From Octopus vulgaris (taxonomy: Eukaryota): a stretch of 64,000 bases of DNA. This document shows, piece after piece, positions 4,196 through 51,567 of the stretch. Position 1 is the first letter of the stretch. Each line of letters opens with the position of its first letter. Where the stretch lies: NCBI GenBank assembly GCA_951406725.2, contig OX597819.1, positions 77,190,001 to 77,254,000 on the forward strand, in the 5' to 3' direction. The position numbers were made by a program, and so were the translations under genes. The notes under the pieces were generated by a model, which saw only the letters and a program-made list of their open reading frames with translations, did no database searches and was not told the DNA's origin.

Positions 4196-4425
4196 TTCTT
4201 TACTACCTACAAGGGGCTAAACACAGAGGGAACAAACAAGGACAGACAAAGGGATTAAGTCGATTACATTAACCCCAGTGCCAAACTGGTACTTAATTTA
4301 TCGACCCCTAAAGGATGAAAGGCAAAGTTGACCTCGGCGGAATTTGAACTCAGAACGTAACGGCAGACGAAATACGGCTATGCATTTTGCCCGGCATGCT
4401 AACGTGTCTGCCAGCTTGCCGCCTT
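4196..4425 (-). mobile_element. tRNA-derived SINE with a Meta-domain-like core
   Basis: Reverse complement has a GAGTTCAAATTCC B-box and a GCCTTTCATCCTTT..GGGTCGATAAATTAAGTACCAG core; many other copies in the window. Confidence 0.8.
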
Positions 4426-5636
4426 AATATATATATATATATACATATATAACAGGCTCCAACACTGTTTCCTTCTATCAAATTCACTCACAAAGCATTT
4501 GTTGATCTCGGGACTATAGTAGAAGACACTTGCTCAAGGTGTTGTGCAGTGGACCAAACCCAAAACCACATGGCTGCAAAAACAAGCTAGACTGAAAATA
4601 ATTTCTTAGTTTTATATGTCTGTCTTTGGTTCTGGAATGCCATTGTCTACTCCCCAGACTTCTACAGGTGTTAGATATTTGATTTTATGTCAATAATTCC
4701 CATTTACAATTGCATTATAGTTGCCATGATAACCACTTAAAATACACTCATATTGCTTGTTTACTTATGTTTATCTATAATAGTATTTTATTTACTACTT
4801 AGTAATAGTAGTGACTAGGTTAGGGGTGTACAAATAAGACACTTTAATTCCTTTATGATGTGTATAATAATATTATTACAAAATATACTAGAATCAAATA
4901 TAATGGTGTGTATATTTATGTGTGTGTTAAACTACTATCATGTCTCTTCCACTAAGAAATTGTTTACTTCAAAGTATTCTTAGATTAAATTGGTTGACAA
5001 ACTAGTAAAACTTAGACGTTTTTTTATTTAGATACATCAATACTATTTTTGAAAAATTTTAGACATTTATCAGAATGACTCTGAAGACATAACATTTTAA
5101 TGACAATTCATTCCTCTCTGCCCACCCCACACCAATTGATATGTCTGACTACTGAAAAACTTATTGATCTGGACTACATGAATTGCTCTATGTAGTTCTC
5201 CCACCTACCCCAGTTTCAAGTTTATTTTAAAATTCATTCATCTAAGGTTTGAGTTCTGGGGCAAAGTTTGATCGATAAAATAATTTCCAGTGATTCAGTC
5301 TAGCTCAACACTTTCTATAAGAAGGAAAAAGTTTCAGTTTTGTGATTAGTCAAAAGATGAAATTTCAAATAATTTACTTATCCTCATTTCTATTCACATT
5401 TCTTGTTGGAAATTAAGTTGCTAACCCCAAGGATAATTCTGATTGAGCATACATATAATCAAAGCTAGTTGTTCTTGCCTTGTTCATCCTGTCTTTTGGA
5501 GACACAGGCAAGGTTGCATAATTGAAATACTTGCTTCACAATTAAATGGTTTAAGGTTCAATATCAACTACCACCATGGGGGCCCCTCAGGTAAGAGTCT
5601 TCTACTATAGCCTTAGGTCAATTAAAGTCTTGTATA

Positions 5637-5865: not shown

Positions 5866-7200
5866 TTTTGGTGGAAGAGCACAATGTGGACGCTCATTGA
5901 AAAGACCATTTCTGTTTCAGGTTGTAGACTTAATCCATTGCCAACTTCAACACATTCATCCTAGCTTGTGGGTGTCTTTCAAAGAATCTAATCCATCTTA
6001 AGCATTCAGGCCAGGCTTTTAGTCTGAAGATAACTTCCACCATTCCCCCTGCAAGTCTCACACACCCTGAAAATTGAAAATATCATGAGGGTTGTCCTTC
6101 CTTACTCTTTTCTTCATTTATCAAATCTTAAAAAATGAGAGAGAAAAAGGTCAAGAACTGCATTATCATGAGTGTTCTTCCTATTTTTAAGAGGGGTTAG
6201 AATGTGATCTGAAAGGGACTTTGCTGCTCTTTCTAGCAGGTTGTGTGACTGCATAATGACTTCCATTGTTTGCTTTGTAAATGAAGTTTTTTTTTTAAAT
6301 GAACTCACTAGTCTCTTAGTTCTGGGCTTTTTTTTTTTTTTTTTGTAAATTTATATTAGAAATACCTAAATTTCAAATATATGTGATGCATATATAAACC
6401 TGTGTATATATCTGTATACATATGTGTTTGTGTGTGCATGTGTATCTTGCTCTAAATTCTATCCCTTTTTTTTTAATTTTGTACTTCCCTTTTCCAGATA
6501 TAAATTGCATGTATAAGAACCCAAATTTAGATACTGCTTTTTTTTCTCTCTCTCTCTCTCTCTTTTTTTTCAAGAAATATTTCATTAGCTACAGTTAGTT
6601 ATTTCTTTCCTTGCCATTGTTGAGTGAAGAAGTATTCTTGTATGGCATTCTGATTTTTTTATTTCATTTATGAAGAATATCTTGGATTCTTATTGTTAAC
6701 ATATTTAAACAGTGTATAGTTTTGGCCTACAGTAATCTTTAATGTTAAAATATGACAAGAAGAAAAAAGAAATCAATAAAAAGTAACAAAACTGCAATCC
6801 AAATAAAGTGTATAAAAAAAAAATCAATGAAAATAATATTATTATCAAATCTTATTTATTTCAGTGACATGAGCTACACTGAATGATTTTCACTTTATAT
6901 GTATTGAACACTGATAAATTCTGTTGTCAGTTTTATCATTTGTTTGCTTTTTGTATTGTTTATTATTATCATCATCATCATCATCAGTAGTAGTAGTAGT
7001 AGTTGCAGCAGCAGTATCAGTTCAGTTAGCAATTTACTAAATAATTACTGATTGTGTTGTTCCTTTCAATAGAAAATCCTTTCTCTGCACCATCATACCA
7101 CATGAAACAGAAGCTCAGCTCCATGCTGCTACTATTTATTTTGTCTTGTTTATTATTTTTATTATCATTATTTTTGTTGATGTTGTTGTTGTTATTTTAG

Positions 7201-7392
7201 GCACAATGTCAACATTTTTACGCAAAATCTCTCAAAGCAGCTTTGTCGAGGATACAATTGAGACGCTAAACTCCGCCAAAGTCAGTTTGATGCAAAACGA
7301 ATCCGAGAAAGACAAACTCTCTAGTGGAAAGGCTTCAATGCCTAAATCTCCTTCTACTTCTAATACTGCCCCCGTGCATCAGAGAATGTCAG
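7201..7392 (+). CDS. NCX: Candidate alternative cassette exon A of the NCX gene (CBD2 variable loop), (G)TMSTFLRKISQSSFVEDTIETL...PVHQRMS(G)
   Basis: T-rich tract ending TTTTAG at 7200; donor GTCAGA at 7393; 192 nt, open, phase 1-1, matching the phase-1 start of exon 20809; peptide is paralogous to exon 12207-12389. Confidence 0.75.
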
Positions 7393-7494
7393 GTCAGAAT
7401 ACGCACCAGCTGCACTGATAGCTGTCATCATTTAATTCCTTAGATTGTCTTCAGCAGTTCAGTATTCAGAGAGAGACACAAAATATAGCAAACA

Positions 7495-7815
7495 TAGAAT
7501 ACTGGGTTCTAATCATGAAGTAGTGAGTTCAATTCCCGGACCAGGTTGTGTGTTGTGTTTTTGAGCAGGACACTTTATTTCGTGTTGCTCCAGTTCACTC
7601 AGCTGTAGAAAATGAGTTGTGACATCACTGTGGCCAATCTGTATCAGCCTTCGTCTTTTCCTTGGATGATATTGATGGGATGGAGAGGGGAGGCTGGTAT
7701 GCATGGGTGACTGCTGTTCTTCCATAAACAATCTTGCCCGGACTTGTACCTCGGAGGGTAACTTCCTAGTTCCTAGGTGCAATCTCATGGTCATTCATGA
7801 CTAAAGGGGGTCTTT
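7495..7815 (+). mobile_element. tRNA-derived SINE (second family)
   Basis: GAGTTCAATTCC B-box then GTGTTTTTGAGCAGGACACTTTATTTC; body matches 36030-36370(-) and 50350-50605(+). Confidence 0.75.
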
Positions 7816-8025
7816 ACTTATTTTACCTTATCCCAACTGTAAGCTTTTGAGTCCTTAAACCTTTTAGCACTCAGATTACTCTGCCTAATTTAAAGCTTAT
7901 TTATTCACATTGTTTTGAATCAATCATGCATTATCTTGTACTTTCAAGATTTTAATGATGTAATTGTTTTATTGTTAGAATGACATTGTAGGGTTGGTGT
8001 TTGAAGATATCATGCATTATGATTA

Positions 8026-8578
8026 TCTATTATATAAAACCGTTCTGTCTGTCTGTCTGTGTGTCTTCTAGGATCTCGGGCATCCTCCATCCAATTGCGC
8101 TCAAATTTGATATGTAGATACTGATGGTATCAGGGCGTGTATAAGTCTAGAAAAAATTACAAAAATCAATTCCAAGTGAGAATGCGATTGATAAAGCCAT
8201 GGGAATGTGCATTTGTACATGCAAGTACATCAGCTGTTGCAATCAATACTATGCGTATGTGAGAAAAATGCACGTGCAGTTTGTGCAAAAAAAGCCAGCT
8301 GGCTTGAAATAATGCCACAAAAAGCAGTATATTTAAGAGACCAAAAAAAGTAAGATGCAAAAGTGATATTTTCTTCAAACTTGGCATGAATGAAGGAAAG
8401 ACTATTTGGTTTCTCATGAAGTATTTTTTTTGCCTTAACTTCATTTAACAAAACCAAAAATTTTATTGAAATAAAGGCATGCTTAATTTTTTTTCGAATG
8501 AAAAGAAAACACTGATTGCTTTTTATTCAGCAGATATGATTCAGCACCGTCCACTGGACAGAGGGGCGTTTTGCTCAT
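8026..8578 (+). mobile_element. Possible non-autonomous Helitron-like element
   Basis: Begins TCTATTATATAAAA followed by a (CTGT)n microsatellite; GC-rich hairpin-like 3' end near 8545-8570. Confidence 0.4.
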
Positions 8579-9949
8579 ATATATATGTATATATATATAT
8601 ATGATTAATGTAAAATGAAGACAAACACCAATGTTCTGTGTGACAGGCTTAAATATTGTTGAGGACTTCCTTAACATGAAACCAACAGTAGCCTTAATAC
8701 ACAAATAATGCACTTATTCTCATATGTGCCTGCAATTTTTCATGCTGCTCATTTTCTTGTGTACATACATTAGTACGCATGCACACACACACACACATAC
8801 ATTCATTTCAATTGTCTATATAACAAGTCTGGTCTCTGGCAATTAATTTCCTCCTCTTTTCTATTTTTCTATTTCTAATTGATAAACTACATAAACTGTT
8901 TGCATTTATAGATATCTCTTTAGCTTGCTATGTTTTGCATGAGCACTGATGCCATCTGATAACAAATTAGCCTGAGAGGGCATCCCACTCCACCAGCCAA
9001 ATCAGGGAAAGAGAAGAAAAAAAAAACTCGCAAAAGAAAAGAAAAAACATGCCTTTTGTTGCTATCTCAAGGTCAAAATGGTTTGTGTGAGTTAGCGTGT
9101 ATTCTTGTTGTCTGTCAACAACTATTTTGTAGATTAGTAGTAATTTACAAGCAAAGCAATGATATAATGTGTGATAATAATGGCAGATGTCTGCATTTAT
9201 CCATCCATTTGCACATTACCATAGAGACATATCTGGTTGATCCACATAGTCGTTGATTATGATGGATATATGTATAGGTGGTGGTGATGGTGGTCTAACT
9301 CTGAATAATTCCTGAGTGAGCTGACCTATGGTCACAGGTTTTTCAGCCATCTCTATCCTATCATTTTTCTTTCTTTCTTTCTTTTTCTTTTGTTACAGTA
9401 ATTCTATGACTGCTTTTACCAATGCGTCCATAAAAAAAAAATGCTAATGTGTGATATGAGAGAGACTGGGCTGCTATTCTTTGCAGGCCAAGCAACCACA
9501 TAGAGGTTTCTTTGTTGGCATAGTGAAAGAAGAACAGCTAAACAAGCCTTACAATGAGAGAATCTATCAAAAGAAAAGACTTAAAGGAAACTATTGTAGA
9601 AAGCATAATATTTAAGATCATGATAAATGGTGTTCCAGCCACTACCTTTATGTATATGAAGCACTATGCTATCTGATGTGACACATCCCCCTACACACAC
9701 ACACACTTTTTTTCTTACATGCTAAGGTATGGTTGGAGGAAAATATGGCTATTGTTTCTAGTAGGTTGAACACTTGTGCAGATGCTCTCTCATTGGCTTG
9801 AAATATGGAAAGTAATTTAAGACAGAATACAGAAGGCAGCACAAGACTTATGTGTTGTTTGATTTATAAGATATAAAATTTCTATAATGTTTTCTCTTGG
9901 AATTAAGTTACTTATTATAATCTATGCCATTTATGGTTGTACATAAGCT

Positions 9950-10260
9950 GGTGGCACGTAAAAAGCACCATTCATATGTGGCCGATACCAGCGCCGCCTT
10001 GACTGGTTTCCGTCTTGATGGCACATAAAAACCACCAACTGATCGTGGCTGTTGCCAGCCTCTCCTGGCACCTGTGCCGGTGGCACGTAAAAACACCCAC
10101 TACACTCACGGAGTGGTTAGAGTTAGGAAGGGCATCCAGCTGTAGAAACACTGCCAGATCAGACTGGAGCCTGGTGCAGCCTCCTGGCTTCCCAGGCCCC
10201 GGTTGAACCGTCCAAACCATGCTAGCACGGAAAATGGACATTAAACAATGATGATGATAA
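9950..10260 (+). mobile_element. (GAT)n-tailed retroposon copy
   Basis: Inverted homolog of 1021-1337; contains GGAAGGGCATCCAGCTGTAGAAAC and ends GGACATTAAACAATGATGATGAT; an older copy follows at ~10520-10745. Confidence 0.75.
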
Positions 10261-11190
10261 TCATATAATTATCACATTGTTGTTCATACTGAGTCATTTT
10301 GGTTGGTTTGTAGATGTGTAAACTCTTCAATTGTTACAGCACTTGTTGGATTGTGACAGAGTTAAGTATGTTGTTTAAGGTCACAGTAAGTTTTGTCTTC
10401 ATTAAGATGTCAGTTTGTATACCATATTTAGTTGATGACATAACAAGTCTGCTGGTCTTTAAATATGACCCAATTGTCTTTGCTTTGGGGTTCTTTATGA
10501 TTGACTGACTTACGTTTATTACTGTTTTGTGCCAGTGCCACATAAAATGCACTTATGCTGGTGTTATATAAAAAGTACCCAGCATGCTTTGTAAAGGATT
10601 GGCATTAAGAAGGGCATCAAGCCATAGAAACCATGCCAAAACGGACAGTTGAAGCCTAGACAGCTCTTTGGTGATTCCTGCTCCTGTCAGACCATTCAAC
10701 CTATGCCAGCTTGGAAAACGGACATTAAACGATAATGATGATGACTTGATGCTCCAGTTTAGATCAATAACCAGATGAGTGATCTTTTGGTGATGTGGGG
10801 TATCTGTTGAATGCTCAGTCCCACTGATACTTTTGTGGGCAGATAACAACTGATTGTATACCAAGTGGTACTTGCTTTGTTGACCCTTGGCAAGATGAAA
10901 ACTTACTTAACCCCAACATGATTTGAACTCAGAACATTGAAAGATGTAATTAATTAACACAGGGTATATTCTCCAACATCTTGACAACTCTACCATCTAT
11001 CACACTTAGAAATGAAACTTTCCACAAACTATTATGATTCTTGTAGATTGCAACAAATGACATTATGGAAAAAAGAATGAAATAACCAAACTGTTCTTAG
11101 TCTTTGTAATATTGTTTTAGCAAAGCTAGGTATAAGAAACAAATATTGTAAAAATGCTTTTACATTGATGATGACAATATTTGGGAACAG

Positions 11191-11395
11191 TAAAAGGGCA
11201 AGATGGCAGAATTGTTTGCATCCTGAGCAAAATGCTGAGTCATTGCATTCTGAGTTCAAATCCCACTGAGGTTGACTTTGCTTTTCATCATTTTGGAGTC
11301 AATAAAATAAGTACCACTTGAGTACTGGGGTTGATCTAATCGACTGAGCTTCTCCATACTTACTGGCCTTGTACCAAAATTTGAAACCAATATTT
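11191..11395 (+). mobile_element. Meta-like SINE copy
   Basis: GGCAGAATTG...CTGAGTTCAAATCC...GACTTTGCTTTTCATC...AAGTACC. Confidence 0.7.
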
Positions 11396-12206
11396 GAGAA
11401 TAGAATAATACTGAAGCCTGTATCGTTTCAGTCGTCTTCACTATCATTAAGAGTTCAATATTCTATTTTTCCATATATCTATCTTAAAAATGTATATTGA
11501 TGCCAAGTATTCTGAAACGAGTGACCAGCTAAACTACAATGTCATGCAAACTATTTCATATGGCATTGAAAATAATTCAATTGCCATATCTCAAATAAAA
11601 AAAAAAGCCAAAACAAAACGAAAAGTATTCTTTTCACTATTCTTACCTTTTGAAAATTATCCAAAATCTTATTGAATTAATCAGTCAAGTCAGTTAATAT
11701 GAAGCACAGCATGATAGCTGACAATTCTTTAGAAAATGGTCTGAAGCTTTTGTTATGCTTTGTGAAAGCTATTAGTTCTTGTTTGAATTCTTCCAGCTTA
11801 TATTATTTTAGAGGAATCTGCTCCATATACACCAAACACTGATATTCAAATATCTATTCAAAATATCCTTATAAGATGAATATATAATTTTCAGTTATAC
11901 ACTTCGTAGGAGTTTTTTAAAAAAATAGTTTCACTAAATAAATGTTTTGGTTATAAGTAAAAGCAACTAGTATATTTTTTTTTTTAAACTTGTTTTCTTT
12001 AGTAATTGTATTTATACAAAAATTTCTATTCACATTAGGTGAAAATTATCGGTAGCTGTTTGTTATTAGACCAAAAATTTTGAAATGCTTTTTTCATACA
12101 TGGCATCACATTTTTCTGGAATGAGCAGCCCTGCACTATTATTTCATTTTAAAACTTGAGCTTAATGATATTGGTGTGTCAATATATGTCATGTGTTCCA
12201 TTCTAG

Positions 12207-12389
12207 GTACCATATCTCATTTTTTTCGAAAAATATCTCAAACCAGCTCTGATGATAGGTTAAGTACAGCACTGGAAACTTTTCCATCATCAAGTTATAT
12301 GCATGCAGATAGAGAGGAGAAAGAGAAACAGCCAATTCACCAGTCAAGTGATAGCAACTTTTCTTTAGCAACTATGCACCATGCATCAG
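12207..12389 (+). CDS. NCX: Candidate alternative cassette exon B of the NCX gene, (G)TISHFFRKISQTSSDDRLSTALETF...ATMHHAS(G)
   Basis: Acceptor CCATTCTAG ending at 12206; donor GTCAGT at 12390; 183 nt, open, phase 1-1; 10 of the first 14 residues identical to exon A. Confidence 0.75.
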
Positions 12390-13616
12390 GTCAGTTTAAG
12401 GTCAAGTTCTGGAAAATCTAGGATTTGCCATTGTTTTGCACAATGAAAACCTATGTACCAAACCAATTCTAGTAGAAACTAGTTTCATAACTTATCTCCT
12501 GGTTAGTTTTCCTCCCTTGATGTATTCTCTGACATAGAAAATACTCCATCCTCCTTTAGTAGATGAGTCTCTAGACTTCATTATCTCCCTTGACATAGAT
12601 TTTTTTCTTTTTACCTTGACACATTCTCAGTCATTGAACACAGAATAATGATAATAATAAAAAAAAAAAGACTCTTTTATTTCAGGATTATGCATTCTTC
12701 TGCCCTGTATAACATAAATTTGCATATGCTCAATCATGCCCATACAGATGTGCACATTATTTTTGGAGTATCTGTTATACTTCTTCATATTTCAAAAGGT
12801 TTAATTTTATCTGTCATCACTTAGTGAACAATAAAATTAGCAGCAGTTAATTCACTAAGGATAATTCTAATTGCAATATTCTTTTGTTTCTTTTTTTTTT
12901 ATTTTTAGCTTTATTTATCTATTTATATTGTGTTGGTCTGGATGAAGTAGCCAACCCACTGGACTTCACAGGCACTCTGAAATCTGTGAAAACAATTTAA
13001 TTAATGTTCCTATTACAAAACAAAGCTTGTGTTTTGCTATGGGATGTTTTTTATGAACTTTCTCTTTTGTCTATGTATGTGTACATAGAGGGAGTTGTTT
13101 AATAGTTTCTACTGATGCGAGGATTCCTCGGTAAACATTAAATCTATTCTGTAATATGAGCTTCTATTTGTGTGTGCTTAACTAGTCATTTCCTATAAAT
13201 GCTTTGTCTTCTCATTCTTTCCTTTCATACTCTTACAGTTACGTTACATTTTTCACATAGCCAAGGGGTTGAAACACAAAATTATTTTGGGGTTTCCTTT
13301 CTCAGAGCTAGAGAATACTTCAGTCCTGAACATCTGGTGACACCCATATAAGGCACAAATATGCCAAAGCCCTCGCCTTAAAGTGCTGTTCATACAGCTG
13401 TGAGGAATGAGTGATGAATTACCTCACCCAGCCCATTACAAAAATAAAAAAAGTGTTTTTGCAGATCCACAATCAACAACTTACTATTGTTGTTAAGTTC
13501 CATGTCAGTACTGATCAAGCAAACCTATGATAGCAGCATTATCAGGCCATTTTTGCTATCTCTACATTCTAAGTTCTGTTTTAAATCATGGTAAATAAAT
13601 TATTATTATTATTATT

Positions 13617-13812
13617 AAAGTGGAAAGCTGGCAGAATTGTTAGCACACTGGACAAAATGCTCGCAGCATTTCACCCGTTGCTACATTCTGAGTTCAAATT
13701 CTGCCAAGGTCGACTATGTCTTTCATCTATTCGGGGTCGATAAATTAAGTACCAGTGAAACACTGAGGTCGATGTAATCAACTAGTCCCTGCCAGTTAAA
13801 TTTCAGGCCTAG
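13617..13812 (+). mobile_element. Meta-like SINE copy
   Basis: Same head and core; preceded by (ATT)n. Confidence 0.75.
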
Positions 13813-15942
13813 AAAATAGTTATATATAGATAGAAGAATAGATTTCTGCTGATTTCAATGATGGGAATTTGTTTGAGTCACTTGAATTATATGTAAGTGG
13901 CTGAGTATTCCATAGTTATTTGTATCATTAAGATAATTCTTTGACAGAATCTGCATGACACATTGTGTGACAAGATTGTACTTTGAATCATGAATAGAGT
14001 GTATCTGACAGGCTTCTATACACTTTCCATCTGCTCAGTTATGAGTCTACCCATGGCTATAAGAAAAACAATGACATTTGCCCAAGATGCTGTGCTCTGA
14101 GATCAAACATTGAGACCTCATGGTTCTGAAGTTAACTTAACCATTTGACAACATGTGCGTACACACACATACACTATACTTGCATCACATACTCATATTA
14201 TAGTTCTAAGAGGCAACATGTTCATCAAAGTATATGCTTGTGTTTCTATTTCATCAGTGGCAGCAGAAAGCACCATAAATGTAGGAAACATTATTTCAAA
14301 AATGCTAGCAAATACAGAAAGTAAAACCATAAAATATTGTAAACAGCTGAAATATCTTTCATTTAAATACAGTTTCTCTCCATGTAAAGCTTTCACATAA
14401 CAGTTTTTACACTTCTCTACTCTCATTCAGAAATTAAGGATAATAAAAATTTTGAATTAAAATTTCATTTTATGTTCATTTTCTAATGCTAGCAAGGGTT
14501 ACACAAATATACCATTGAAGCATTGTTTTATAGCTGGGCAGCTGGAATCCCTTCCTGCTGCTATCTTTAGCTTTTTACTTTCATAAGGGATCATCTCTTA
14601 TTTCACAAATCTTTGAAAGCATGAAAGTAGGTGATTTGTTGACAGGAGTGACAACAGCAATACTCCTCATAGGGAGTGACTTTTGTTGAGTGCAAACATA
14701 AAGATACCTACACAGTCTTTTTCCTTTTTCTCGTACAGGTCTTTTTGCTATTTGATAAATGAGATACACAACAAGCATATATATTTTTAGGAACATGGGT
14801 ATTCTGAAAACATGATGCTATTCCTGGAGAAAATATTTGGAATGGGAGTGTATACATCTTAAACATTTGAACATTTCTGCACACAAATCCATGTACAATA
14901 CAACCTTTGTGTTATCTGCCATAGCAATTCTCATTGGGGTAAAATGATGAAAGAAGTAGACTTATGATGAAAAACGTTTCAATTGTTACCATCTCTTATT
15001 TACAAGCACACTGCATCTAAAGCTACCCTGTGTTTTTTTTTTTTGTTTTTCTTTTTGTATTAAATTTGATTTGCTGCAAATTAAAAGAGAGTTGACTGGT
15101 ATTTTCCATGTTGGAAGAAGCTTACTCATTGGCTCATAATAAATCCATTTATGTCCTGAGGAGGACAAATATGGTATAATGAATTTAAACTTTTTTTTTT
15201 AACTGTTCGTTAATAATTTCTCTAATTCTGCTACAAATATGACATGAACAGCAGTTTGTTGTTTAATCCAAAGCTTAGCCTTGATGGCGCTGCTCTATTG
15301 CCAAAAGCATTTTTGCCATGACCATCTTGTCATTTGGTATATCATATCTTTGATTTGCTTCAGTAATCCAAGTAGGGCACTGCTTTAAACAGTTTAGTCA
15401 AACAAATTAACCTTAGTACCTATGTTTTGAAAGTCTGGTACTCACTTTACTGAACCGCTAAATTATTAAACGAACCAATATCAGTTGTCAGACAATGCAG
15501 AGACAGACACACAAACAAGCATACATATGCATGCATGCATACATACATACAAATAAGTTTATACCCATAATTATTGGGGTACTGGGATATGTAACATACT
15601 GCCTAAATACCAATCTTGAAAAATTAGGCTTCTCAAAGCCAGAAAGGAGACAGCTTATTTAAAGACTACAGTTCCAAGCCATCACTAGTACTGTAAAAAT
15701 CTGTAAACCTTTTGAGAAGTTTAACATTTAAGTATATATGAGCATTTCTAGACATGCAACTATATGCATGAGCATACATGCACAAAACAAAATAAACAAA
15801 TCTGCACACACACATACATACACACACAAAATTTACCTTGTTGATGTTGTTGAAATTCCAATGAAGGAGCCTTGGATCTAGGTTAGAAACTAGTTCTTCC
15901 TCTATTGGCAAGAAATCTTGAAATAAAACTGAATAATCACTT

Positions 15943-15975
<33 letters not shown>

Positions 15976-17058
15976 AGCACAAGAAATAAGGTTAAGTATG
16001 AGTTTATATTATAGTTCCTACGCACATTTCACCAATATGGTTGTTTGGAGCCCTCCGGTAAGTGTTCTGAGTGCATTTAGATGCTTAATTACAATGGATC
16101 ATCAAAGAACATTTCATTGCATCAAGTTACAGCTAACTATATACACATGCACACACACACACACACATGTACATGTGTATATGATAGACTTCCACACGCA
16201 GTGGGATTGAACCTGAAACCATGTGTTTGCAAAGCAAGCTTCTCAATAATCACACAGCTATGTCTGTGTCTATATATCCCTAAACTTATTCATTTATTCA
16301 ATCATATGTTCTGTATGGTTTTTACATAAGGCTTCATTTTCTACTCATTAACAATACAAATGTACATGTTCTATTAAATAGTTTTTCCACTTTTTCTTTT
16401 TCTTTTCTTTTTTTTTTATACCAACAGTTTGTCTGCTTCTGTTTCTCCTTAATAATATACTTCAGATTGCCTTTCTTTTTGGCTAATTTTTTTGAAACAT
16501 TTTGCCATTTGCTATTTATTTCTGTATAATTTTTAATTTTTTTTCATCAAGTGGCTTTACCAGCGCTTTGCACTGATCAACAGTGTTCCAGCTTCCTGTC
16601 CCTCTTTACTCGCTGATTGGTTTTTATGTAGAGTAGATTTTTCACTATTATTATTATTTTTATTATTATTATTATCATTATTATTATTGTGGCCTGATTC
16701 AGTCTAAGATGATCGATAAATGTGTTCTTAATTTCTTCAACACTAATGCAACTTCAAGGTTATACATGTAGACAAAACAAAGAACAAAAAATGAAAAAGA
16801 AGAAAGTAAGCACAAAGAAGAGACATATTTTTCGTCTAGCATTTGTCTGTGTGTCTGTTTGTCTTAAAAGACAGTAAAAATTAGTGAGTATATATATATA
16901 TATGTTGCTCTGCTGGTATTAGTAGGCAAACAACTTAGTGGATTTTCCTTTCAATTTATTTGTTGTTGTTCTTCTTCTGCTTCTTATTAATATTATTTTT
17001 GTGGTTACTATCATCATCATCATGATCATGATCATCATCATGATTATGATCATGATTA

Positions 17059-17094
<36 letters not shown>

Positions 17095-17097
17095 GTG

Positions 17098-17310
17098 AAG
17101 GCAGTGAGCTAGTAGAATTGTTAGCATGCTGGACAAAATGCTTAGTGGTATTTCGCCCATCGCTACGTTCTGAGTTCAAATTCCGTTGTGGTCAACTTTG
17201 CCTTTCATCCTTTCGGGGTTGACAAATTAAGTACCAGTGAAACACTGGGTTCGATGTAATCAACTAGTCCCTCTCACCAAACTTCAGGCCTTGTGCCTAT
17301 AGTAGAAAGG
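17098..17310 (+). mobile_element. Meta-like SINE copy inside an (ATT)n tract
   Basis: Full head, core and tail; (ATT)n on both sides. Confidence 0.8.
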
Positions 17311-17326
17311 ATTATTATTATTATTA

Positions 17327-17357
<31 letters not shown>

Positions 17358-17989
17358 GTTTTTTCCTTCTTTCTTCAAATTTTCTTCTGTTTCTCACCGA
17401 GTGTTTTCCATACACCTAGGGCAGAGAAGCTGATTGTATGTATTATTATTATTATTATTTTATGAAAACATCTGAATGTATTCCATTAATGAATGATTCA
17501 TTATTACAGTTAAATCAATCTGTTATAATTCTAGCCTGCTCTTCTCTTCTCATGAAACTGTTCTTAACTAATGTTACTAACGCCTACTGTCAAGCACCCT
17601 TTGCAGAGCATTTTTATGCAACAAAAACAAAACAAAGCAAGGTACAATGAAAATCCTGCTAGCATGGATTGCAGATGGTTCAGCAGTGATTTGTGTAAAC
17701 TTATAGGATCATAAAACTATTTCCTCTCTGCTATTTACCATTTAATTGTCTGGTAGGAGTGGTGCTTTATTTTTGTTTTATTTCTTTGAGTTATGTTAAA
17801 TGTAGCCTGTAATATCGGCCTTTACACAGCACAATGAAAATTTCTTAAGTGCTATAGCCTATTCAATATTAGTCAATAATCAATCCCAGCATCCTGTTGA
17901 TATAGTTAACAGATTCTGTAATCCATTCAGTCATAGCAGCTTCATAGATGCTGTGATTTTAGTATTAATATACCAGCATTAATCACAGC

Positions 17990-18210
17990 AGCAAAGTGGC
18001 AGAATTGGTAGCATCCCAGGCAAAATGCTTTGCAGCATTTAGGCTGTCTTTATGTTCTGAGTTCGCATGCTGCCCAGGTCGACTTTGTCTTCCATACTTT
18101 GGGAGTTGATAAAATAAGTACCAGTTGAGTACTGGGGTCGATGTAATTGACTTACCCCCACCCCTTCCCCGAAACTGCTGGCCTTGTACCAAAATTTGAA
18201 ACCAATATAT
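17990..18210 (+). mobile_element. Meta-like SINE copy
   Basis: Same head and core with tail GGCCTTGTACCAAAATTTGAAACC. Confidence 0.75.
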
Positions 18211-20701
18211 TAACATTAATCAGTTTTGGAGTTCTGTCTCTGCTTAATACTGTAAATTGTTGAACAAACAAAGGAGCCTTTCTTTGCAGTTTCTTGACTT
18301 GCTGGAAATAATAGCTGATTTTTTTGTTGATTGAAACTACCATTTTAAAAAGGAATGATACATTAGATAAGATAGCTCAGGACACACACTGATTGGAAAA
18401 AAAGAAAGAAATTGAATAAAACATGATGGTTCTAGTTTAAGTGCCTTTTACCATGTCTTTTAAAGCAAGGTTGTTGTTGCTTTTTTGTTGCCCTAGGTGA
18501 TCCATAAGCAAAGAGCACATGTAATTGGCTAAATGCCAAAGGTGTGACCCACAGATCTTTTGTTCTGTTCAAGATATACCTGTGCATAACAGTTGTTGTT
18601 TGCCTGCACTTATCATTGGTGATGTATATTGCAACACATTGTCTGAGGTTATTGAACATATTAAGGATGCAACCATTTTTGTGTGCCAGTGTATTTTATG
18701 TTTCTGTGTACCAAATGGGAGAGATAATGTTTTTAGAACATTCTAGTACTGTTCTTGTGTATTGTAGATGTGACTGTGGGGTAGATTTTGTTTTTACATC
18801 TAATGGAAGAGATCATAAAGGTTTGAGTTTGCTCTGACAGGAAATACATCTACACACACATTCAATTGGTTTTTCCTTTTCAGCCAGTGATTTCATGTGA
18901 ACTTATAAAAGCACTGCATTCACTTTCTCTGGAAAGAAAAACAATTTTAAGAAATTTCCTGATTGTTTCTTTTCGTTCTTCAGTATTGAACTTTCATCAT
19001 GAAAGTGCGGACTAATGTGTATGGTTATATTTCATTTTATTTTTTTGCAGCGTTATATTCCTACAAAGTTATTCGAATTATTTGAAGCAACATTCTTTTC
19101 AAATAAAAAAAAAACAATCAAAACCTCATCGTATATGTGCATTTTTATGTTTAAAACAATCTCTGGGCTAATATCTATGACTCAGAGCTTCTGCCATTAT
19201 GTTTGGTGTCTAAAGCACATATTTCTTTCAAACTTTTAATATATTTTTAAAGAATTTTGATAAAATAATTTTGGAAATACTAAGTTATTAAATGTTGTTC
19301 TTCCTTTCCTTTATAAGGATGGAAAGAAAGTTCTTATTTAAAACATCTAAAATAAGAGGAGAATATATAAAAAAAAGCCTAAGTTTTTAAAACTGTTATA
19401 TTCATTAAAATATTCACCAAAAGAATATAAATGGCATATGTGGCTTTCATTTATTTGTTTATTCTATTATATTTATTATGTGAGCATCAGAGAGGATTGA
19501 TAGCACTCATGTCCATTTTAGAGGATCTCCAAAGCTGCTTGCAACTGAGGGAATACTACTATAGGTATCGAAGGGTCGGGTAGTGGAATATTAAGCTGAG
19601 TAACAAATTACGTCTACCAGTTCAACAAGTACACAAATTATAATTTTCTTTTCAATGAAACTTGAAGAAAGATAAGTTTAAAAGTATGCAATAAATTAGG
19701 AGTAGGCAGCCTTTCTTGAGAACCAGGCTGCATGAGACATAACCCATAATCAGGCAAGTTGCACAATTATGCATATGTATATCATTTTCCTCATGAAGTT
19801 GAGCATTTCATTCCGCAAGTCCTCCAGACCACAGTTTGCTCATGGCTGTAATAAGTTTTTCCATCAGGATTATTAGGATTATGAAGGAACTTGGGTTTAC
19901 TATGATATGACAAGATGTTATTTGGTATTATATGTGTTTTTAAACTATAGATTCTTTCAAATATGCAGCAAAATGGCATCAGCATGCTAGTGTTACCATA
20001 TGTATTAATGAAGTTTTTATACATCCATAATATAATTGAGATTGTTGGGTAAATGTTTTTTTTTTTTGTTTTTGTTTTTTTTTTCCTTTTTAAAAAAAAA
20101 TATAATAATAAATTACAAGATTTTCAGATTCAAATCTTGACTTTCTAATTATCTGAATAAACACCTCAAAGCTATACAGGAATAGACTAATACAATAGAA
20201 GAATGGTGAGTGAATGTCAAATATGGTTTACTTTTACATCACTTGAGGTTTTAGCACACCTGTGAACACATATGCGACAGCACATTGCATAGTTTTGTTA
20301 TTATATATCATACTCTGATTTACTTCTTGGCTTTGATTGCTAAAATGTTGATTGCTATGCGAATATTTAAACAGCTTTATGAAGTATGTGTTTATTCATT
20401 CTTCAAACTGTTCTCACTCTACTAGTTTCTTTCTCTCTCTCTCTCTCTATATATATATATAAGTTTCTATTCTTGTTCCTTCCAGTTGATTTGTCTTTTT
20501 AAAATGTCACTAAATTGTTGATAGAGATGTTTAATAAATGGCTTGGTCATTTTACAGTTTACCTTGGCACAAAATATATTGAATTTCTTTATTAACGTTT
20601 TATGAAATAAATGTAACATTTCTAATTTAACCAGAAATCATTTGCTTGATTTTTTCCTATGGAATAATTTTGTAAATATAGTTCTCTGAATTTAATTTCT
20701 G

Positions 20702-20738
<37 letters not shown>

Positions 20739-20808
20739 CATCATTCCTGTTATCTTCAAAAGGCTTCTTTTTTTTAACTTGTTTTGTTCTTTTTTCTGTC
20801 TCTTTTAG

Positions 20809-20930
20809 GTAGTAGTTCTGAAAATGTACAGCAGGAGGAAGATGATCCTGTATTGGTGGAACTTGGTAAACCGAGACGTGGTGAAAATATCAAGATTACA
20901 GTTCACATAACTGAGAGCACAGAATTCAAG
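20809..20930 (+). CDS. NCX: NCX exon: end of Ca-binding domain 2, (G)SSSENVQQEEDDPVLVELGKPRRGENIKITVHITESTEFK
   Basis: Long polypyrimidine tract plus TAG; donor GTCAGT at 20931; ELGKPxxGE...ESxEFK is the NCX CBD2 C-terminal signature; phase 1 to 0. Confidence 0.93.
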
Positions 20931-21745
20931 GTCAGTGTCTTTGATTTACGAAAACATCCACAGAACATTGATTCCTTTGCTTTTTTTTTTACTGAATAAA
21001 ACAAAGAAAAGCAAAAAAACAATTATGCATATTTATGGTGGTAGTGTTGGTAGAATGTTGAGATCAGCCCTCACCACTTTTCCTCCCCATTTCTTCCTAG
21101 AAGTTACTGTTCTTCAGGTTCCTTCCACTGGATCAATTTATTATCTTCCAGACTTATCACATGTCCATACCAGTACAATTTCTTCTAATATCTAGTTTCT
21201 TTGTCTGCTTGTTTGTATTCCATCTTTCACACATCCTGCACATTCACTGCTCATATTCTACTACTATGCTACATTTCACTTCATAAACATGCCTCATACA
21301 ATTATAGTTGGCCTGTGCTGTGATAGTCCATTTTACAATGTATTTGAAAGACGTGCTATGGTTAAAAAGTCTTTGCTTGCACTTATTGTCAACCGTATCT
21401 CCATAGCTGGTTATTGGGAAATGGTTGAGGTAACTTCAGCTTCATGAATTTATCTCTTGAATTCCACATCTTGTATACCCAAGCATACATCTCTCACCCA
21501 CTTCTATCTGCTCTTTTATTTAAATAGTGTATTTAGAACTACTTTATCCACTGTACTTTTTCTTTTTTGTTTTTAAAACAACAGGACATAATTTAAGAGA
21601 GATTTAGCTGCTATGTTCAGCAAGCTGAACAATAGCATAATCTCCTTTACTGGCTCATTTCTATTTGGTTGAGTAATTTTTTAAATAACATGTTCCTAAG
21701 TATTATTTTCATTCACACTATACAATGTCAGGTTCTACTTGTGCT

Positions 21746-22582
21746 TACACTGTAAAAGGCTAAATTTGATGATGTTTCAGGTCTCCTGGTAAACAGTTAT
21801 TGGAGAGCATAAAGATTAAAGTTGTTGCTGAGAGAAAAAGTTAGCTAACATGGAGGCCGGAAGCTATCTGAATGTTGGAAAAGAGTAACATGCAACATGA
21901 GGATTCACACCTCATATCAAAATGTCAACATCATGGCTGCTGCTCAGTGCTCTGTAAACACTGTAAAGGCTGTAAGACATGGCATGGATAACTGCAACGG
22001 AGACAATGGTCATTCTGACTGCATCTGCATACCAAACCTGAGTTCATCTTCACATCTTTGAACAGGCCCTTAAGCTCAATTCAGACGGCTATGTGAAATT
22101 GTTGGTGACTATGGTAAATCCCTGGTTGGAAAGTCATATGTGTGGCAGCAAGATTTGGCTCTTTGCAATTACCTCCAGAAAAATGACAGAAGTGGTTGTC
22201 AGAAAATTTCTATGAATTCACCTTCTCTAGTTTCTGACCTCTCTCCAAATTATAATCCCATGGATTACTATGGGATGCAGTTGAGAAAGACACCAACTGC
22301 TCTGCCTGCAACACCAAGACCAAGCTGGTTGATCAGTATCAAGGAACTGTTCGAAAATCTTTCCAAGAACACAGTGGGGAACACATGCACTAGGTTCCAG
22401 ATCAATTTTCATTCCATGATGGGAGCTGAGAGTGGCTACTTTTAGTAAATTGATATCTCCCAGCCATAATCTAGTTGGTGTTTTTTTTTTTTGTTTTTCT
22501 TTAGATACTTTTATTTTTTTGATGGGATATTATGCTTTCTTTTCCTTTTACACAAACTGTCAAATTTAGCCCAAACACTGTA
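21746..22582 (+). mobile_element. Decayed, internally deleted Tc1/mariner-superfamily transposon
   Basis: Imperfect TIRs (CACTGTAAAAGGCTAAATTTGA / TCAAATTTAGCCCAAACACTG) flanked by TA; transposase remnants WQQD...SPNYNPMDYY. Confidence 0.7.
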
Positions 22583-23086
22583 TTTTCAATTGTAGTCATT
22601 GAAGTGCAACGGAACACTGAATTAAAAGCAATTCAAAGCTGGAACAGAGTTTTATCTTTACCTTTATAAGATGATTTCAACTTAGCAAAATTATTGACTT
22701 GTTTTTTTATGACTCCCAACAATGCTATATTTATCATCAATTATCAAGTAGCATATATAAAGAAGAAGGAACAGTTTTATTGTGTTTCAGTGACTTACTT
22801 TCTTAGATAAAATACTAGTTCACAGAATTTCTAGAAATTTATAAGTACTTTTTTTTTTTTAGTTTTCCATAATGAGATTAGGAACAGTTCTTTAAAATTT
22901 AATACCAACATTTTGACTGTTTTACATTAGTCTTATAACTTGTTGAGTCTTTGTTTCGTGAGATTCTATCAAAGACTTTCTCCTAAAACTGGTTATCTAG
23001 GTTAATACAAATTGATCAGTCTTGTTCTTCCCAAAGTTATTTCCCCAGGTGTTAAACTCAGTGCTTAATGCTAACTGTGAAGGTTT

Positions 23087-23400
23087 ATGGCTTAGTGGGT
23101 AGGGTATTTGGCCGACAATCATTTTGCCATGAGTTTGATTTCTGGCAGCACATTGTGTCCTTGAGCAAGACTCTTTACTTCACATTGCTTCAGTTCACTC
23201 AGCTGGCATAAGTGAGTTATACTTGTATTTCAAAGGGCCAGCCCCGTTACATCCTGTGTCACACTGAATCTCCCTGAGAATTTTGTTAAGGGTACATGTG
23301 TCTCTGAAGTGCTCAGCCACTGACACGTTAATTTCACTAGCAGGCCGTTCTGTTGACCAGGTCAGTTGGAACCGTCATCATTACAACTGACAAAGTGCCC
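23087..23400 (+). mobile_element. tRNA-derived SINE (second-family head, different tail)
   Basis: ATGGCTTAGTGG A-box-like start; GTGTCCTTGAGCAAGACTCTTTACTTCACATTGC core. Confidence 0.65.
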
Positions 23401-23489
23401 ACTGCATGCTAACTAGCTACTTGTCAATTTTACTATGCTATCATAATAACTGACTTTATTGGTTTTACACCTAGTTTTCATACCTGTGT

Positions 23490-23800
23490 GTGTTGGACAA
23501 TTCTCTCTAGAGACAGTCCCACCACTTATCTGTTGTGTTCCTTTGTGAAGTTCAACATCTTGAGATCAGATTTCACCACTCCTACCCATATCTTCTGCTT
23601 CCATTTTTTTGTAATTCCATGCAGATCTCCTGGCACTCCTTCACCAAACTGTCATCAGCTGTATGCATCACTTGCCCATACCACTGCAGTTGTACCACTA
23701 GCACACTTTTTCTTCTTATACCCAATTTTTCTCTCGACAAATCTGTTCTTTGTCATCCGTACACACTGACATTACACTATATCGCTCTGCAATGTTATTG
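23490..23800 (-). mobile_element. Degraded RTE-like LINE C-terminal fragment
   Basis: Minus strand reads ...WVGVVKSDLKMLNFTKE..., resembling RTE ORF ends; heavily decayed. Confidence 0.4.
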
Positions 23801-24048
23801 CTTATAATGGTGAGTTGTTCTGAACATAGGGTGTCTATTTTCAACTTGGTGAACTTGACCATTAAAAAAAACGCATAGTGTAATGTTAGGTTGAAAACTG
23901 CCAGTATTTTGTCTGGTTGTCTGAGAACCTAACAAACACACCCAGCTATTCCCTCTAACGTCCCTCACCTAACCTAGATTAACTGTGAGGATGAAATATT
24001 TACCTGCTACCATTTGGAATCAAATCACATTTCCTTTTATCTTTTCAG

Positions 24049-24148
24049 AGTGTGGTTGACAAGTTACTAAAGAAAGCTAACTTATCTCTTGTCGTTAGCA
24101 CTTCTTCCTGGAGAGAACAGTTCATTGAGGCCATAACAGTCAATGCAG
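24049..24148 (+). CDS. NCX: NCX exon SVVDKLLKKANLSLVVSTSSWREQFIEAITVNA (missed by the ORF track)
   Basis: Acceptor CTTTTCAG, donor GTCAGT at 24149; 100 nt, phase 0 to 1; VDKLxKKxNL...SWREQFxEAITV is diagnostic for SLC8. Confidence 0.96.
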
Positions 24149-25794: not shown

Positions 25795-26460
25795 TCATAT
25801 GTTAGCTATGTCATGTTTCTGTGGAAGACATCATGCATGTGATTAGCAGCTGTCCTAAAATGTCATCAAGATACTACTTCTTTATGTGGCACAATGTTGT
25901 TGCTGAAACAATTTACAATGCCATCTGCAAAAAAGACTGTCCTGAAATAAACTTAGAAAATCCCTTTTATGGAATACATTCCTAAACACCAACTCAAGGA
26001 ATACTGGTGGAATATTCCCATCAAAACTTCTGTCAAATATAAACATAACAGGCCAGATATTGTTGTTTGGGACAGAGGGGCAAAGGTATGTACTATCATA
26101 GAGGTCAGCTGCCCTGCAGACATAAATATCTCTTTGAAAATCAAAAACAAAAAAAGTATATTTATGGACAGCTGTTTCAAAACCTCCAGCTTCTATATCT
26201 AGACTATGAATTCATATTCATACCAATAATAATTGGAGTACTAGATTTTGTTTGTAAATGCTTAAAGGAGGATCTAGATAAACTGGAGTTTTCAGAAAGA
26301 GAAATCAACTGGCTAATTCGTACATTACAAGTGCAATCTGTGTGTGGAACAGTAAAAATATGCAAGACTTTTCTCAAGTTCTAAATGTGAATTTGTCTGT
26401 GTTAACTACATCCCAAAGATGGAGCCTTGTATCTTTGTTGGAAACCTGCTCTCTCCTCAT
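25795..26460 (+). mobile_element. 5'-truncated R4/Dong-like non-LTR retrotransposon (zinc knuckle plus restriction-like endonuclease), frameshifted
   Basis: VEDIMHVISSCP...HNVVA...YWWNIPIKT...NRPDIVVWD...IIEVSCP...IPIIIG...ICKTFLKF*; ORFs 25969-26202 and 26067-26384 are two frames of one broken ORF. Confidence 0.85.
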
Positions 26461-30495: not shown

Positions 30496-30498
30496 AAG
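30496..30498 (+). CDS. NCX: Candidate 3-nt microexon AAG, adding one Glu (NA-G to NA-E-G)
   Basis: GTTTTCTGTTTTTGTTTTTCAG|AAG|GTAAGA: strong acceptor and consensus donor 3 nt apart; frame-neutral between phase-1 junctions (GCA G|AA G|GA). Confidence 0.6.
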
Positions 30499-47164: not shown

Positions 47165-47275
47165 GAGATGATGACGACGATGGTGAAGAAGAAAAACTCC
47201 CTTCTTGTATGGATTACATCATGCATTTTGTCTGCTTGTTCTGGAAAGTGTTGTTTGCTTTTGTACCACCAACAG
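47165..47275 (+). CDS. NCX: NCX exon (G)DDDDDGEEEKLPSCMDYIMHFVCLFWKVLFAFVPPT (missed by the ORF track)
   Basis: Acceptor TGTTTTAG, donor GTAAGT at 47276; 111 nt, phase 1-1; contains the acidic tract and the PSCxDYxMHF...FWKVLFAFVPPT motif of SLC8. Confidence 0.97.
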
Positions 47276-49944: not shown

Positions 49945-50103
49945 AATACTGGGGTGGTTGGGCATGTTTTACAGTAAGCATCAGTCTCATTGGTGTTTTG
50001 ACTGCCTTCATCGGTGATTTTGCTAGTCATTTTGGCTGCACGATAGGTCTGAAAGATGCTGTAACTGCCGTTTCCTTTGTAGCTTTGGGCACCAGTGTCC
50101 CAG
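49945..50103 (+). CDS. NCX: NCX exon (E)YWGGWACFTVSISLIGVLTAFIGDFASHFGCTIGLKDAVTAVSFVALGTSVP (TM and first half of the alpha-2 repeat)
   Basis: Acceptor TCTCTTGCAG, donor GTAATA at 50104; 159 nt, phase 1-1; ALGTSVPD alpha-2 motif completed across the junction. Confidence 0.97.
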
Positions 50104-51190: not shown

Positions 51191-51567
51191 ATACTTTTGC
51201 CAGTAAAGTAGCTGCTGTAAATGACAAATATGCAGATTCCTCAATTGGTAATGTTACTGGCAGCAATGCTGTCAACGTATTCCTTGGAATTGGCATTGCC
51301 TGGAGTATTGCAGCTATTTACCATGCTGCCAATGGATCAGTGTTCCGCGTCCATCCAGGAACCTTGGCATTCTCTGTCACAGTCTTCTGTGTCTTTGCTT
51401 TCTTTACAACTCTCATTCTCGTGTTACGGAGACACAAGAAGGTCGGCGGTGAGTTGGGCGGGCCTCCCGTCTACAGACATGTGGCAGCTTCCATTTTTAT
51501 CCTATTCTGGGTCATATACATCTTGCTGACCAGTTTAATGAGCTATTGTTACATTGAGGCTTTCTAA
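51191..51567 (+). CDS. NCX: NCX last coding exon (D)TFASKVAA...IGNVTGSNAVNVFLGIG...GGELGGP...YCYIEAF*
   Basis: Acceptor AATTGTAG ending at 51190; NVTGSNAVNVFLGIG and GGELGG motifs; TAA at 51565-51567. Confidence 0.98.

What the first reader, a model, noticed from the sequence alone, without database searches (positions are those of the whole stretch)
7201..12389. Tandem-duplicated pair of large cassette exons in the NCX CBD2 variable loop
Seen: two exon-like segments 4.8 kb apart (7201-7392, 192 nt; 12207-12389, 183 nt). Both are open, phase 1-1 and end ...TCAG|GTCAG. Their peptides are paralogous: GTMSTFLRKISQSS vs GTISHFFRKISQTS (10/14 identical), ETL..MQNESEKDK vs ETF..MHADREEKEK, and HQRMSG vs HHASG. 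Protein similarity survives despite changed codons, which suggests purifying selection. Known: this junction maps to the CBD2 F-G loop region, where vertebrate NCX1 has short cassette exons and Drosophila CALX1.1/1.2 differ, tuning Ca2+ regulation. From memory, squid NCX-SQ1 cDNA runs directly into GSSS with no such insert. Inference: a lineage-specific module that adds 0, 1 or 2 disordered, Ser-rich ~60-aa inserts, possibly mutually exclusive or tissue-specific.
Basis: partly seen in the sequence, partly recalled or inferred. Interest (0 to 1): 0.85.

Follow-up and report, generated by a model that had tools for sequence, protein, structure and literature searches.

The report
Triplicated optional exons in octopus exchanger
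The octopus gene for the sodium-calcium exchanger, which removes calcium from cells, carries three related optional exons; two of them are seen spliced in together in a close relative's RNA, and all three would add about 180 residues to a loop known to tune calcium regulation, likely giving a minor, differently regulated form of the exchanger.

Summary
Segments A (7201-7392) and B (12207-12389) are open, phase 1-1, single-copy, paralogous exons of an Octopus NCX gene, placed right after strand F of CBD2.

They are two of three: paralog Z lies 3.2-3.4 kb upstream of the window, after a 21-nt microexon that decapodiform-like cephalopod proteins share. They are not mutually exclusive. An assembled contig from a close relative joins A to B, and its end fits a join to exon 20809; its depth is about 6% of the constitutive contig. 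Three other runs showed no piece on A or B. Of 10 annotated Octopus proteins reaching this loop, 3 carry Z+A+B, 7 none, 0 one or two.

The full loop is 215 aa against at most 79 in 186 other NCX proteins; the cassettes were found only in Octopus. The best-conserved part is an amphipathic head with an RKIS kinase-type site, a motif class Octopus short forms lack here but 38 of 51 other invertebrate representatives carry.

Verdict: a new, oversized variant of known F-G-loop splicing, already in RefSeq models, not found described. Function, tissue and disorder are untested. Interest 0.45.

The parts
7201..7392 (+). Cassette exon A (192 nt, phase 1-1, 64 aa), second of three paralogous cassettes. 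The first (Z, 171 nt) and the 21-nt microexon lie upstream of the window.
   Evidence: Covered by spliced contig X12 record 8. Present in RefSeq models P0001, P0005, P0006.
12207..12389 (+). Cassette exon B (183 nt, phase 1-1, 61 aa), third paralogous cassette
   Evidence: Joined to A in X12 record 8; its last 28 letters fit AG plus 26 nt of exon 20809 (inference from contig overlap).
7221..7232 (+). RKIS basophilic kinase-type motif inside the amphipathic head of A
   Evidence: Hydrophobic moment 0.64, the highest 11-mer of A. Phosphorylation untested.
12227..12238 (+). RKIS motif inside the amphipathic head of B
   Evidence: Moment 0.75, the highest 11-mer of B. Phosphorylation untested.
20809..20930 (+). 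Constitutive exon: end of the F-G loop, CH1 helix and strand G of CBD2
   Evidence: Spliced to 24049 in 4 of 4 runs. CH1 and strand G assigned by homology to NCX1.
24049..24148 (+). Constitutive exon (region of the CH2 helix, by homology)
30496..30498 (+). Candidate 3-nt microexon (AAG) that would explain the NAG/NAEG isoform pair
   Evidence: Only candidate of its pattern in intron 24149-47164; P0005 vs P0006. No reads laid there.
47165..47275 (+). Constitutive exon with the acidic stretch and the LPSC helix (the palmitoylation site in NCX1)
49945..50103 (+). Constitutive exon in the C-terminal transmembrane half
51191..51567 (+). Last coding exon, final transmembrane helices and stop

Best explanation
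A and B are two of three tandem-duplicated, frame-preserving cassette exons of the Octopus Na+/Ca2+ exchanger; A and B are spliced together in a close relative's RNA, and all three are likely included as one regulated block that would lengthen the CBD2 F-G loop by 182 residues and likely retune the exchanger's Ca2+/Na+ regulation. Shown: exon anatomy, paralogy, position after strand F, the A-B splice, and no piece on A or B in three other runs. Inferred: one ancestral exon of about 60 codons duplicated twice long ago, since the flanks no longer match and synonymous sites in the head have largely changed. Inferred: the block is switched on in some tissue or state and off in most transcripts. 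Inferred: the insert sits at the CBD1-CBD2 hinge near the Ca3-Ca4 sites, as NCX1 exons C-F do. There the conserved amphipathic heads would dock on CBD12 or the membrane and shift regulatory Ca2+ affinity or relief from Na+ inactivation, with the Ser-rich remainder as flexible spacer. Most speculative (about 0.3): phosphorylation of the RKIS serines by a PKA/CaMK-type kinase toggles that docking.
For: Spliced A-B contig with no break at either junction; depth 7.4 vs 124.2 for the constitutive contig. RefSeq models of two Octopus species include microexon+Z+A+B in order; 3 of 10 annotated proteins that reach the loop have all three, 7 none. All three frames are open in the window, O. sinensis and O. 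bimaculoides, with one in-frame 1-aa gap. Paralogy statistics; head pS 0.53 vs pN 0.18. The insert falls between query 611 and 810 of the NCX1 alignment, after CBD2 strand F. In NCX1, exons C-F lie in this loop, raise CBD1 Ca2+ affinity stepwise and form a subdomain that fastens the two CBDs (PMC9820601 passages; PMC10550945 section 9).
Against: Inclusion was seen in 1 of 4 runs, in a relative about 1% divergent, not in the two runs whose intron contigs match the window best; the output was cut to the best rows. Depth suggests about 6%, and contig depth is a poor expression measure. Inclusion of Z is not shown by reads (it is outside the stretch laid). Cassettes differ at 12 of 179 positions from O. 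bimaculoides against 0 of 105 in the three flanking exons; whether that is below neutral depends on a divergence I could not fix (P 0.49 at 3%, 0.08 at 4.4%, 0.002 at 6%). An R[RK]xS motif arises in 5% of shuffles of each peptide, the looser motif in 14-26%, and Z lacks it. No structure model and no functional data.
Confidence: 0.55

Rival explanations
1. The block is a regulated, functional insert, but it serves targeting or partner binding (membrane lipid, scaffold, calmodulin-like protein) and does not alter CBD allostery.
For: The conserved part is a short amphipathic, basic helix-like head (moments 0.64 and 0.75). At 182 aa the insert is far larger than needed to brace the hinge (41 aa for NCX1 exons C-F; PMC2408596 Table 2).
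Against: The characterised inserts at this site (NCX1 C-F, CALX1.1/1.2) change ion regulation. No partner was identified.
Confidence: 0.2
2. The exons are tolerated, leaky remnants of an old duplication, included at low level with no selected function today.
For: About 6% depth in one run, no piece shown in three. Faster change than flanking exons. Skipped in the O. vulgaris protein record P0010. No relatives outside Octopus.
Against: Three symmetric open exons kept while their flanks lost all similarity. Head residues kept across changed codons. All-or-none pattern in annotated isoforms.
Confidence: 0.15
3. The block mainly leads to truncated transcripts: reading through the B donor and polyadenylating in the intron gives an exchanger without strand G and the last transmembrane half.
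For: O. bimaculoides X1 (P0001) ends by reading through the B donor. AATAAA at 12656 and 12830.
Against: The X12 contig leaves the genome at the end of B and its remaining 28 letters fit exon 20809. O. sinensis X1/X2 are full length. The other O. bimaculoides models also lack the C-terminal half, and an A-run beside 12656 could prime internally.
Confidence: 0.06
4. [quoted passage not shown]
For: They are tandem paralogs of similar length and the same phase.
Against: Direct A-B splice. Co-inclusion in 3 of 3 annotated long forms. Both lengths are multiples of 3 and they lie 4.8 kb apart, so neither frame nor steric hindrance forbids both. The 25 longest of 67 inverted pairs shown were repeat copies or simple repeats.
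Confidence: 0.04

Closest known systems
Vertebrate NCX1 (SLC8A1) cassette exons C, D, E, F
   Same: Same place (after CBD2 strand F), optional, frame-preserving, additive.
   Different: 7, 6, 5 and 23 aa (41 in all) against 57, 64 and 61 aa here. No significant sequence relation was found between A or B and the loops that carry C-F. The octopus exons are paralogs of one another and appear all-or-none. C-F fold into a subdomain; the octopus insert has no model.
[quoted passage not shown]
   Same: Tandem exon duplication in the CBD2 variable region (PMC2408596 section 9).
   Different: Those encode the Ca2+-binding core and exclude each other. The octopus gene has one such exon (L012 9612-9709; no second copy by tblastn over the introns), and its duplicated cassettes are co-included.
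Drosophila CALX1.1 / CALX1.2
   Same: Splicing within the F-G loop that changes the response to regulatory Ca2+ (PMC9820601 passages).
   Different: Five residues differ there, against 182 added here.
Short F-G loop inserts in other lophotrochozoan NCX isoforms (Mercenaria, Mya, Dreissena, Mytilus, Haliotis, Babylonia, oysters, scallops, Lineus)
   Same: Annotated isoform sets differ by optional inserts at this same point. A clam insert carries HFLRRKT, resembling the octopus HFFRKIS head.
   Different: Whole loops are 19-72 aa. The clam resemblance was not among the best-scoring of 266 local alignments, so homology is not shown.
Squid NCX-SQ1
   Same: Orthologous gene, same flanking sequence.
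   Different: No insert; nine RT-PCR clones from optic lobe and stellate ganglion showed no splice variant (PMC2217150 passage). Other decapodiform-like proteins carry the 7-aa microexon but none seen carries a long insert.
Frog cardiac NCX1 9-aa insert linked to cAMP inhibition (recalled; papers not held)
   Same: Lineage-specific exon in this loop proposed to add second-messenger control; a Xenopus isoform with an extra insert there is (P0125).
   Different: Recalled as 9 aa and proposed to complete a P-loop; no sequence relation was tested beyond, and the claim was not read here.

Membership tests
SLC8/NCX Na+/Ca2+ exchanger gene | Two Na_Ca_ex halves and two Calx-beta domains; similarity to NCX1 | tested here: met
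   Pfam on P0005; PDB match to NCX1 at E reported as 0; exons mapped over about 318 kb of G000:C6
CBD2 F-G loop cassette exons (NCX1 C-F type) | Located between strand F and the CH1 helix / strand G of CBD2 | tested here: met
   by sequence alignment, not by a model
CBD2 F-G loop cassette exons (NCX1 C-F type) | Optional and frame-preserving: inclusion and skipping both occur | tested here: met
   Inclusion of A+B in X12; contigs through exon 20809 with no piece on A or B in X1, X9, X13; annotated forms of both kinds
CBD2 F-G loop cassette exons (NCX1 C-F type) | Sequence homology to exons C-F | tested here: not met
   The best vertebrate matches of B were to the constitutive stretch after exon F, low-complexity, among 266 comparisons; no Pfam or library hit outside Octopus
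CBD2 F-G loop cassette exons (NCX1 C-F type) | Tissue-specific use | tested here: inconclusive
   Runs differ (1 of 4 shows inclusion) but tissue labels are coded and species differ
CBD2 F-G loop cassette exons (NCX1 C-F type) | Changes Ca2+ affinity or Na+ inactivation | not testable with these tools
   Needs electrophysiology or binding assays
Mutually exclusive tandem duplicated exons | Paralogy between neighbouring exons | tested here: met
Mutually exclusive tandem duplicated exons | Never included together | tested here: not met
   A-B junction; P0001, P0005, P0006
Dispersed repeat / exonised transposon | Further copies in the genome | tested here: not met
   DNA and protein searches of G000 return only the locus itself for A, B and Z; other hits cover only the simple repeat upstream of A, or have E 0.08 with five stops. 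The tool warns that counts are lower bounds.
PKA/CaMK-type substrate site | Basophilic consensus R-K-x-S with hydrophobic residue at -5 | tested here: met
   RKIS in A and B, kept in O. bimaculoides and O. sinensis; consensus recalled from general knowledge
PKA/CaMK-type substrate site | Phosphorylated, with a functional effect | not testable with these tools
   No phosphoproteomic data available

The most novel reading that the evidence does not exclude
Octopus lost the constitutive basophilic kinase site that most other invertebrate NCX proteins carry at the start of the F-G loop and regained it as a splice-gated module: a triplicated exon block adding two RKIS helices and one acidic copy, so that splicing decides whether the exchanger is under cAMP/kinase control. 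That would give a natural on/off pair for the open question of direct kinase regulation of NCX.
Probability: 0.22. Interest if true: 0.72.

Novelty: new variant of a known kind. Interest (0 to 1): 0.45.

Why it matters
The CBD2 F-G loop is where splicing sets NCX regulation, and squid NCX is the classic preparation for that regulation, yet its cloned form showed no variants. An octopus form with a 215-residue loop built from three old duplicates is the longest of the 188 loops compared here. It shows tandem duplicates used additively rather than as alternatives. It also offers a ready isoform pair for testing how loop content, and possibly phosphorylation, acts on CBD12 allostery. The excitement is limited: optional inserts here are common across molluscs, the long form is already in automated annotations, it appears minor, and no function is shown.

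Tried and rejected
No RNA holder listed: one search listed no run on record as RNA; the four laid are guesses, though their contigs cross GT-AG introns.

Searches for orthologs outside Octopus found none: longer proteins with A (1 of 23 candidates, O. bimaculoides); shorter proteins with the insert (0 of 239); a profile of A/B/Z over 1.84 billion representatives (1 hit, the same protein; the alignment used was imperfect in the middle of B); metagenome contigs (0 of 120); ESM Atlas (no usable hit). No other cephalopod genome could be searched, so absence from squid genomes is not shown.

Further copies in the gene: none among 7932 acceptor-anchored open heads (next score 16 vs 36-44). The strict candidate-exon filter in the same call missed A, B and Z themselves and is uninformative.

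Origin from a neighbouring exon (E2, microexon, 20809, 24049): no support; best 49 of 1000 among 12 tests. Homology of B to the vertebrate stretch after exon F, or to the clam RRKT insert: treated as chance or unproven.

Shared TCAG|GTCAG as proof of duplication: weakened, since constitutive donors share GTCAG. Flank similarity: none.

Disorder by simple scales (recalled values): not discriminating. No structure model was obtained, so fold and docking of the insert remain open.

Rfam over 1-25000: no match. Splicing-factor motifs: one TGCATG 16 nt before Z, nothing near A or B; not interpreted. Earlier findings of this scan: none for this place. Frog exon papers: not held, and searches did not find the claim.
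Full report
Observation. 7201-7392 (192 nt) and 12207-12389 (183 nt) follow AG acceptors, are open, start and end in phase 1 and end TCAG|GTCAG. Their similarity is beyond chance: DNA local score 51 against a shuffled mean of 18.9 (0 of 2000), protein global 0 of 10000, local 16 of 10000. At protein level the signal is mostly the first 13 residues; without them it is not significant. The GTCAG donor is shared with two constitutive exons, so it is weak evidence on its own.

The gene. The window holds the 3' part of an NCX gene. Its exons translate 98-100% identical to O. sinensis proteins, so it is an Octopus close to that species. I fetched the 269 kb upstream in 27 stretches and mapped the gene with RefSeq protein P0005. 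The order is: a large first coding exon; a 98-nt exon homologous to vertebrate exon A/B; a 21-nt microexon (L009 9446-9466); cassette Z (L007 6636-6806, 171 nt); A; B; then exons at 20809, 24049, 47165, 49945 and 51191. Z is a third, more distant paralog (global score reached by 0 of 10000 shuffles against A and 8 of 10000 against B; local scores not significant). No fourth copy was found among 7932 acceptor-anchored candidates. Searches of the genome return only this locus for A, B and Z.

Are they used? Contigs of 4 runs from 4 studies were laid on 6500-24400. All four join 20930 to 24049. In X12, a relative with 2 differences in 189 letters of A and none in B, record 8 (540 nt) covers A and B with no letters between them, which is an A-B splice across a 4814-nt GT-AG intron. 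Its last 28 letters leave the genome at the end of B. That is the length expected for AG plus 26 nt of exon 20809 if contigs overlap by 30 letters, and the constitutive contig begins 4 letters before that exon; so the B-20809 join is inferred, not displayed. The 139 letters before A are unplaced; part of Z would fit, but Z was outside the stretch. Depth is 7.4 against 124.2, about 6%, a rough figure by the tool's own warning. In X1, X9 and X13 one contig runs through the start of exon 20809 and on for 289-2741 letters with no listed piece on A or B. The tables were cut to the best rows, so rare inclusion there is not excluded, and inclusion in the runs that match the window best is not shown.

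Annotation agrees. O. sinensis X1 and X2 and O. bimaculoides X1 carry microexon, Z, A and B in order; seven other Octopus records that reach the loop carry none of the three; none carries one or two. These are automated models and may share assumptions. The O. bimaculoides model ends by reading through the B donor, but that species' other models also lack the C-terminal half. Mutual exclusion is therefore contradicted, and the data favour an all-or-none block of 182 aa.

Age and selection. The 300-nt flanks of A, B and Z show no similarity. In the 13-codon head, A and B differ at 0.53 of synonymous and 0.18 of non-synonymous sites. This points to an old duplication with constraint on the head, but the block is small and was chosen because it matches. 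Against O. bimaculoides the cassettes differ at 12 of 179 positions (one an in-frame gap), the large first exon at 18 of 581 columns, and the three flanking exons at 0 of 105. Whether 11 substitutions is below neutral depends on the species divergence, which I could not measure (P 0.49, 0.08, 0.002 at 3, 4.4, 6%). That test is inconclusive.

Distribution. The cassettes were found only in Octopus. One search listed the best 120 of 379 hits; its Argonauta, Doryteuthis and two unnamed decapodiform-like representatives, and the 14 members of those two clusters, have no long insert. The microexon is present in decapodiform-like proteins. No other cephalopod genome was searchable, so a minor unannotated form in squid is not excluded. 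Of 202 proteins held, 188 had a parsable loop: 215 aa in the two full-length long forms, at most 79 in the other 186. That set is biased to molluscs and vertebrates and holds no named arthropod or nematode.

Mechanism. The insert lies after CBD2 strand F. In NCX1, exons C-F occupy this loop near the Ca3-Ca4 sites of CBD1 and raise Ca2+ affinity stepwise, and five residues here separate CALX1.1 from CALX1.2 (PMC9820601, passages). In the cryo-EM structure they fold into a subdomain fastening both CBDs (PMC10550945, passages and section 9). The likeliest role of the octopus block is therefore to retune Ca2+/Na+ regulation in some tissue; this is inference by position. The inserts are 25-32% Ser/Thr, but disorder was not shown and no model was obtained. 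The most conserved part is an amphipathic head with RKIS in A and B and an acidic counterpart in Z. A motif [RK][RK]x[ST] sits in the first nine loop residues of 38 of 51 non-Octopus representatives that I classed as invertebrate (oysters over-represented, many unnamed, some only KK-type), but in 0 of 7 Octopus short forms. That suggests a kinase site made optional by splicing. Such motifs are common by chance (5% per peptide for R[RK]xS), so I give this about 0.2-0.3.

Comparison and novelty. It works like NCX1 C-F cassette splicing but is not shown to be homologous to those exons (7, 6, 5, 23 aa; PMC2408596 passages and section 9), and it fails the test for mutually exclusive duplicates. Squid NCX-SQ1 lacks the insert, and nine neural clones showed no variants (PMC2217150, passages). 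Short optional inserts here are common in mollusc annotations. I found no paper describing the octopus exons in searches (listings only), nor NCX in the main text of two preprints that include octopus. Their supplements were not seen and may list these exons, and most subscription journals are not held. The frog cAMP-linked exon is recalled, not read.

Verdict. A real, previously annotated but apparently undescribed variant of a known regulatory splicing site, unusual in size and in using three duplicates additively. Interest 0.45; novel case 0.22 probable, 0.72 if true.

Noticed in passing
L007:6636-6806 (G000:C6:77186636-77186806), 3.2-3.4 kb upstream of the window: Third paralogous cassette Z (171 nt, phase 1-1, ends GTCAG|GTCAG); acidic head with two cysteines in place of RKIS; a TGCATG 16 nt before its acceptor.
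   Followed up: yes
L009:9446-9466 (G000:C6:77169446-77169466): 21-nt microexon, optional in Octopus and in decapodiform-like proteins (42 contigs without, 41 with); a similar peptide occurs in unnamed protein P0018. It is absent from the cloned squid neural form.
   Followed up: partly
window 30496-30498: Candidate 3-nt microexon with strong splice sites explaining the NAG/NAEG isoform pair before the LPSC helix; both forms also occur among decapodiform-like proteins.
   Followed up: partly
L009:5258-5260 (G000:C6:77165258-77165260): Candidate 3-nt microexon explaining the KKP/KKPA isoform pair; all three long forms carry the extra Ala.
   Followed up: partly
window 12390-12840: Read-through of the B donor gives a short open tail; AATAAA at 12656 (beside an A-run) and 12830; matches the truncated O. 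bimaculoides X1 model.
   Followed up: partly
L006:2965-4703: One 1.74-kb first coding exon followed by a 214-kb intron, like the large exon of vertebrate NCX1; several database proteins stop at its end (P0003, P0007).
   Followed up: no
window 4251-4447 versus 11243, 13663, 17098, 17963: Inverted copies of a dispersed repeat (74-82% complementary) bracket A, or A and B; probably incidental, but could loop them out in pre-mRNA.
   Followed up: no
window 25885-26381: Fragments resembling a non-LTR retrotransposon endonuclease region (RPDIVVW...IEVSCP motif; resemblance recalled) in the intron after 24148.
   Followed up: no
G000:C4:33.43 Mb, C5:51.06-51.09 Mb, C2:31.87 Mb: Other Calx-beta matches in the genome; not examined.
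   Followed up: no
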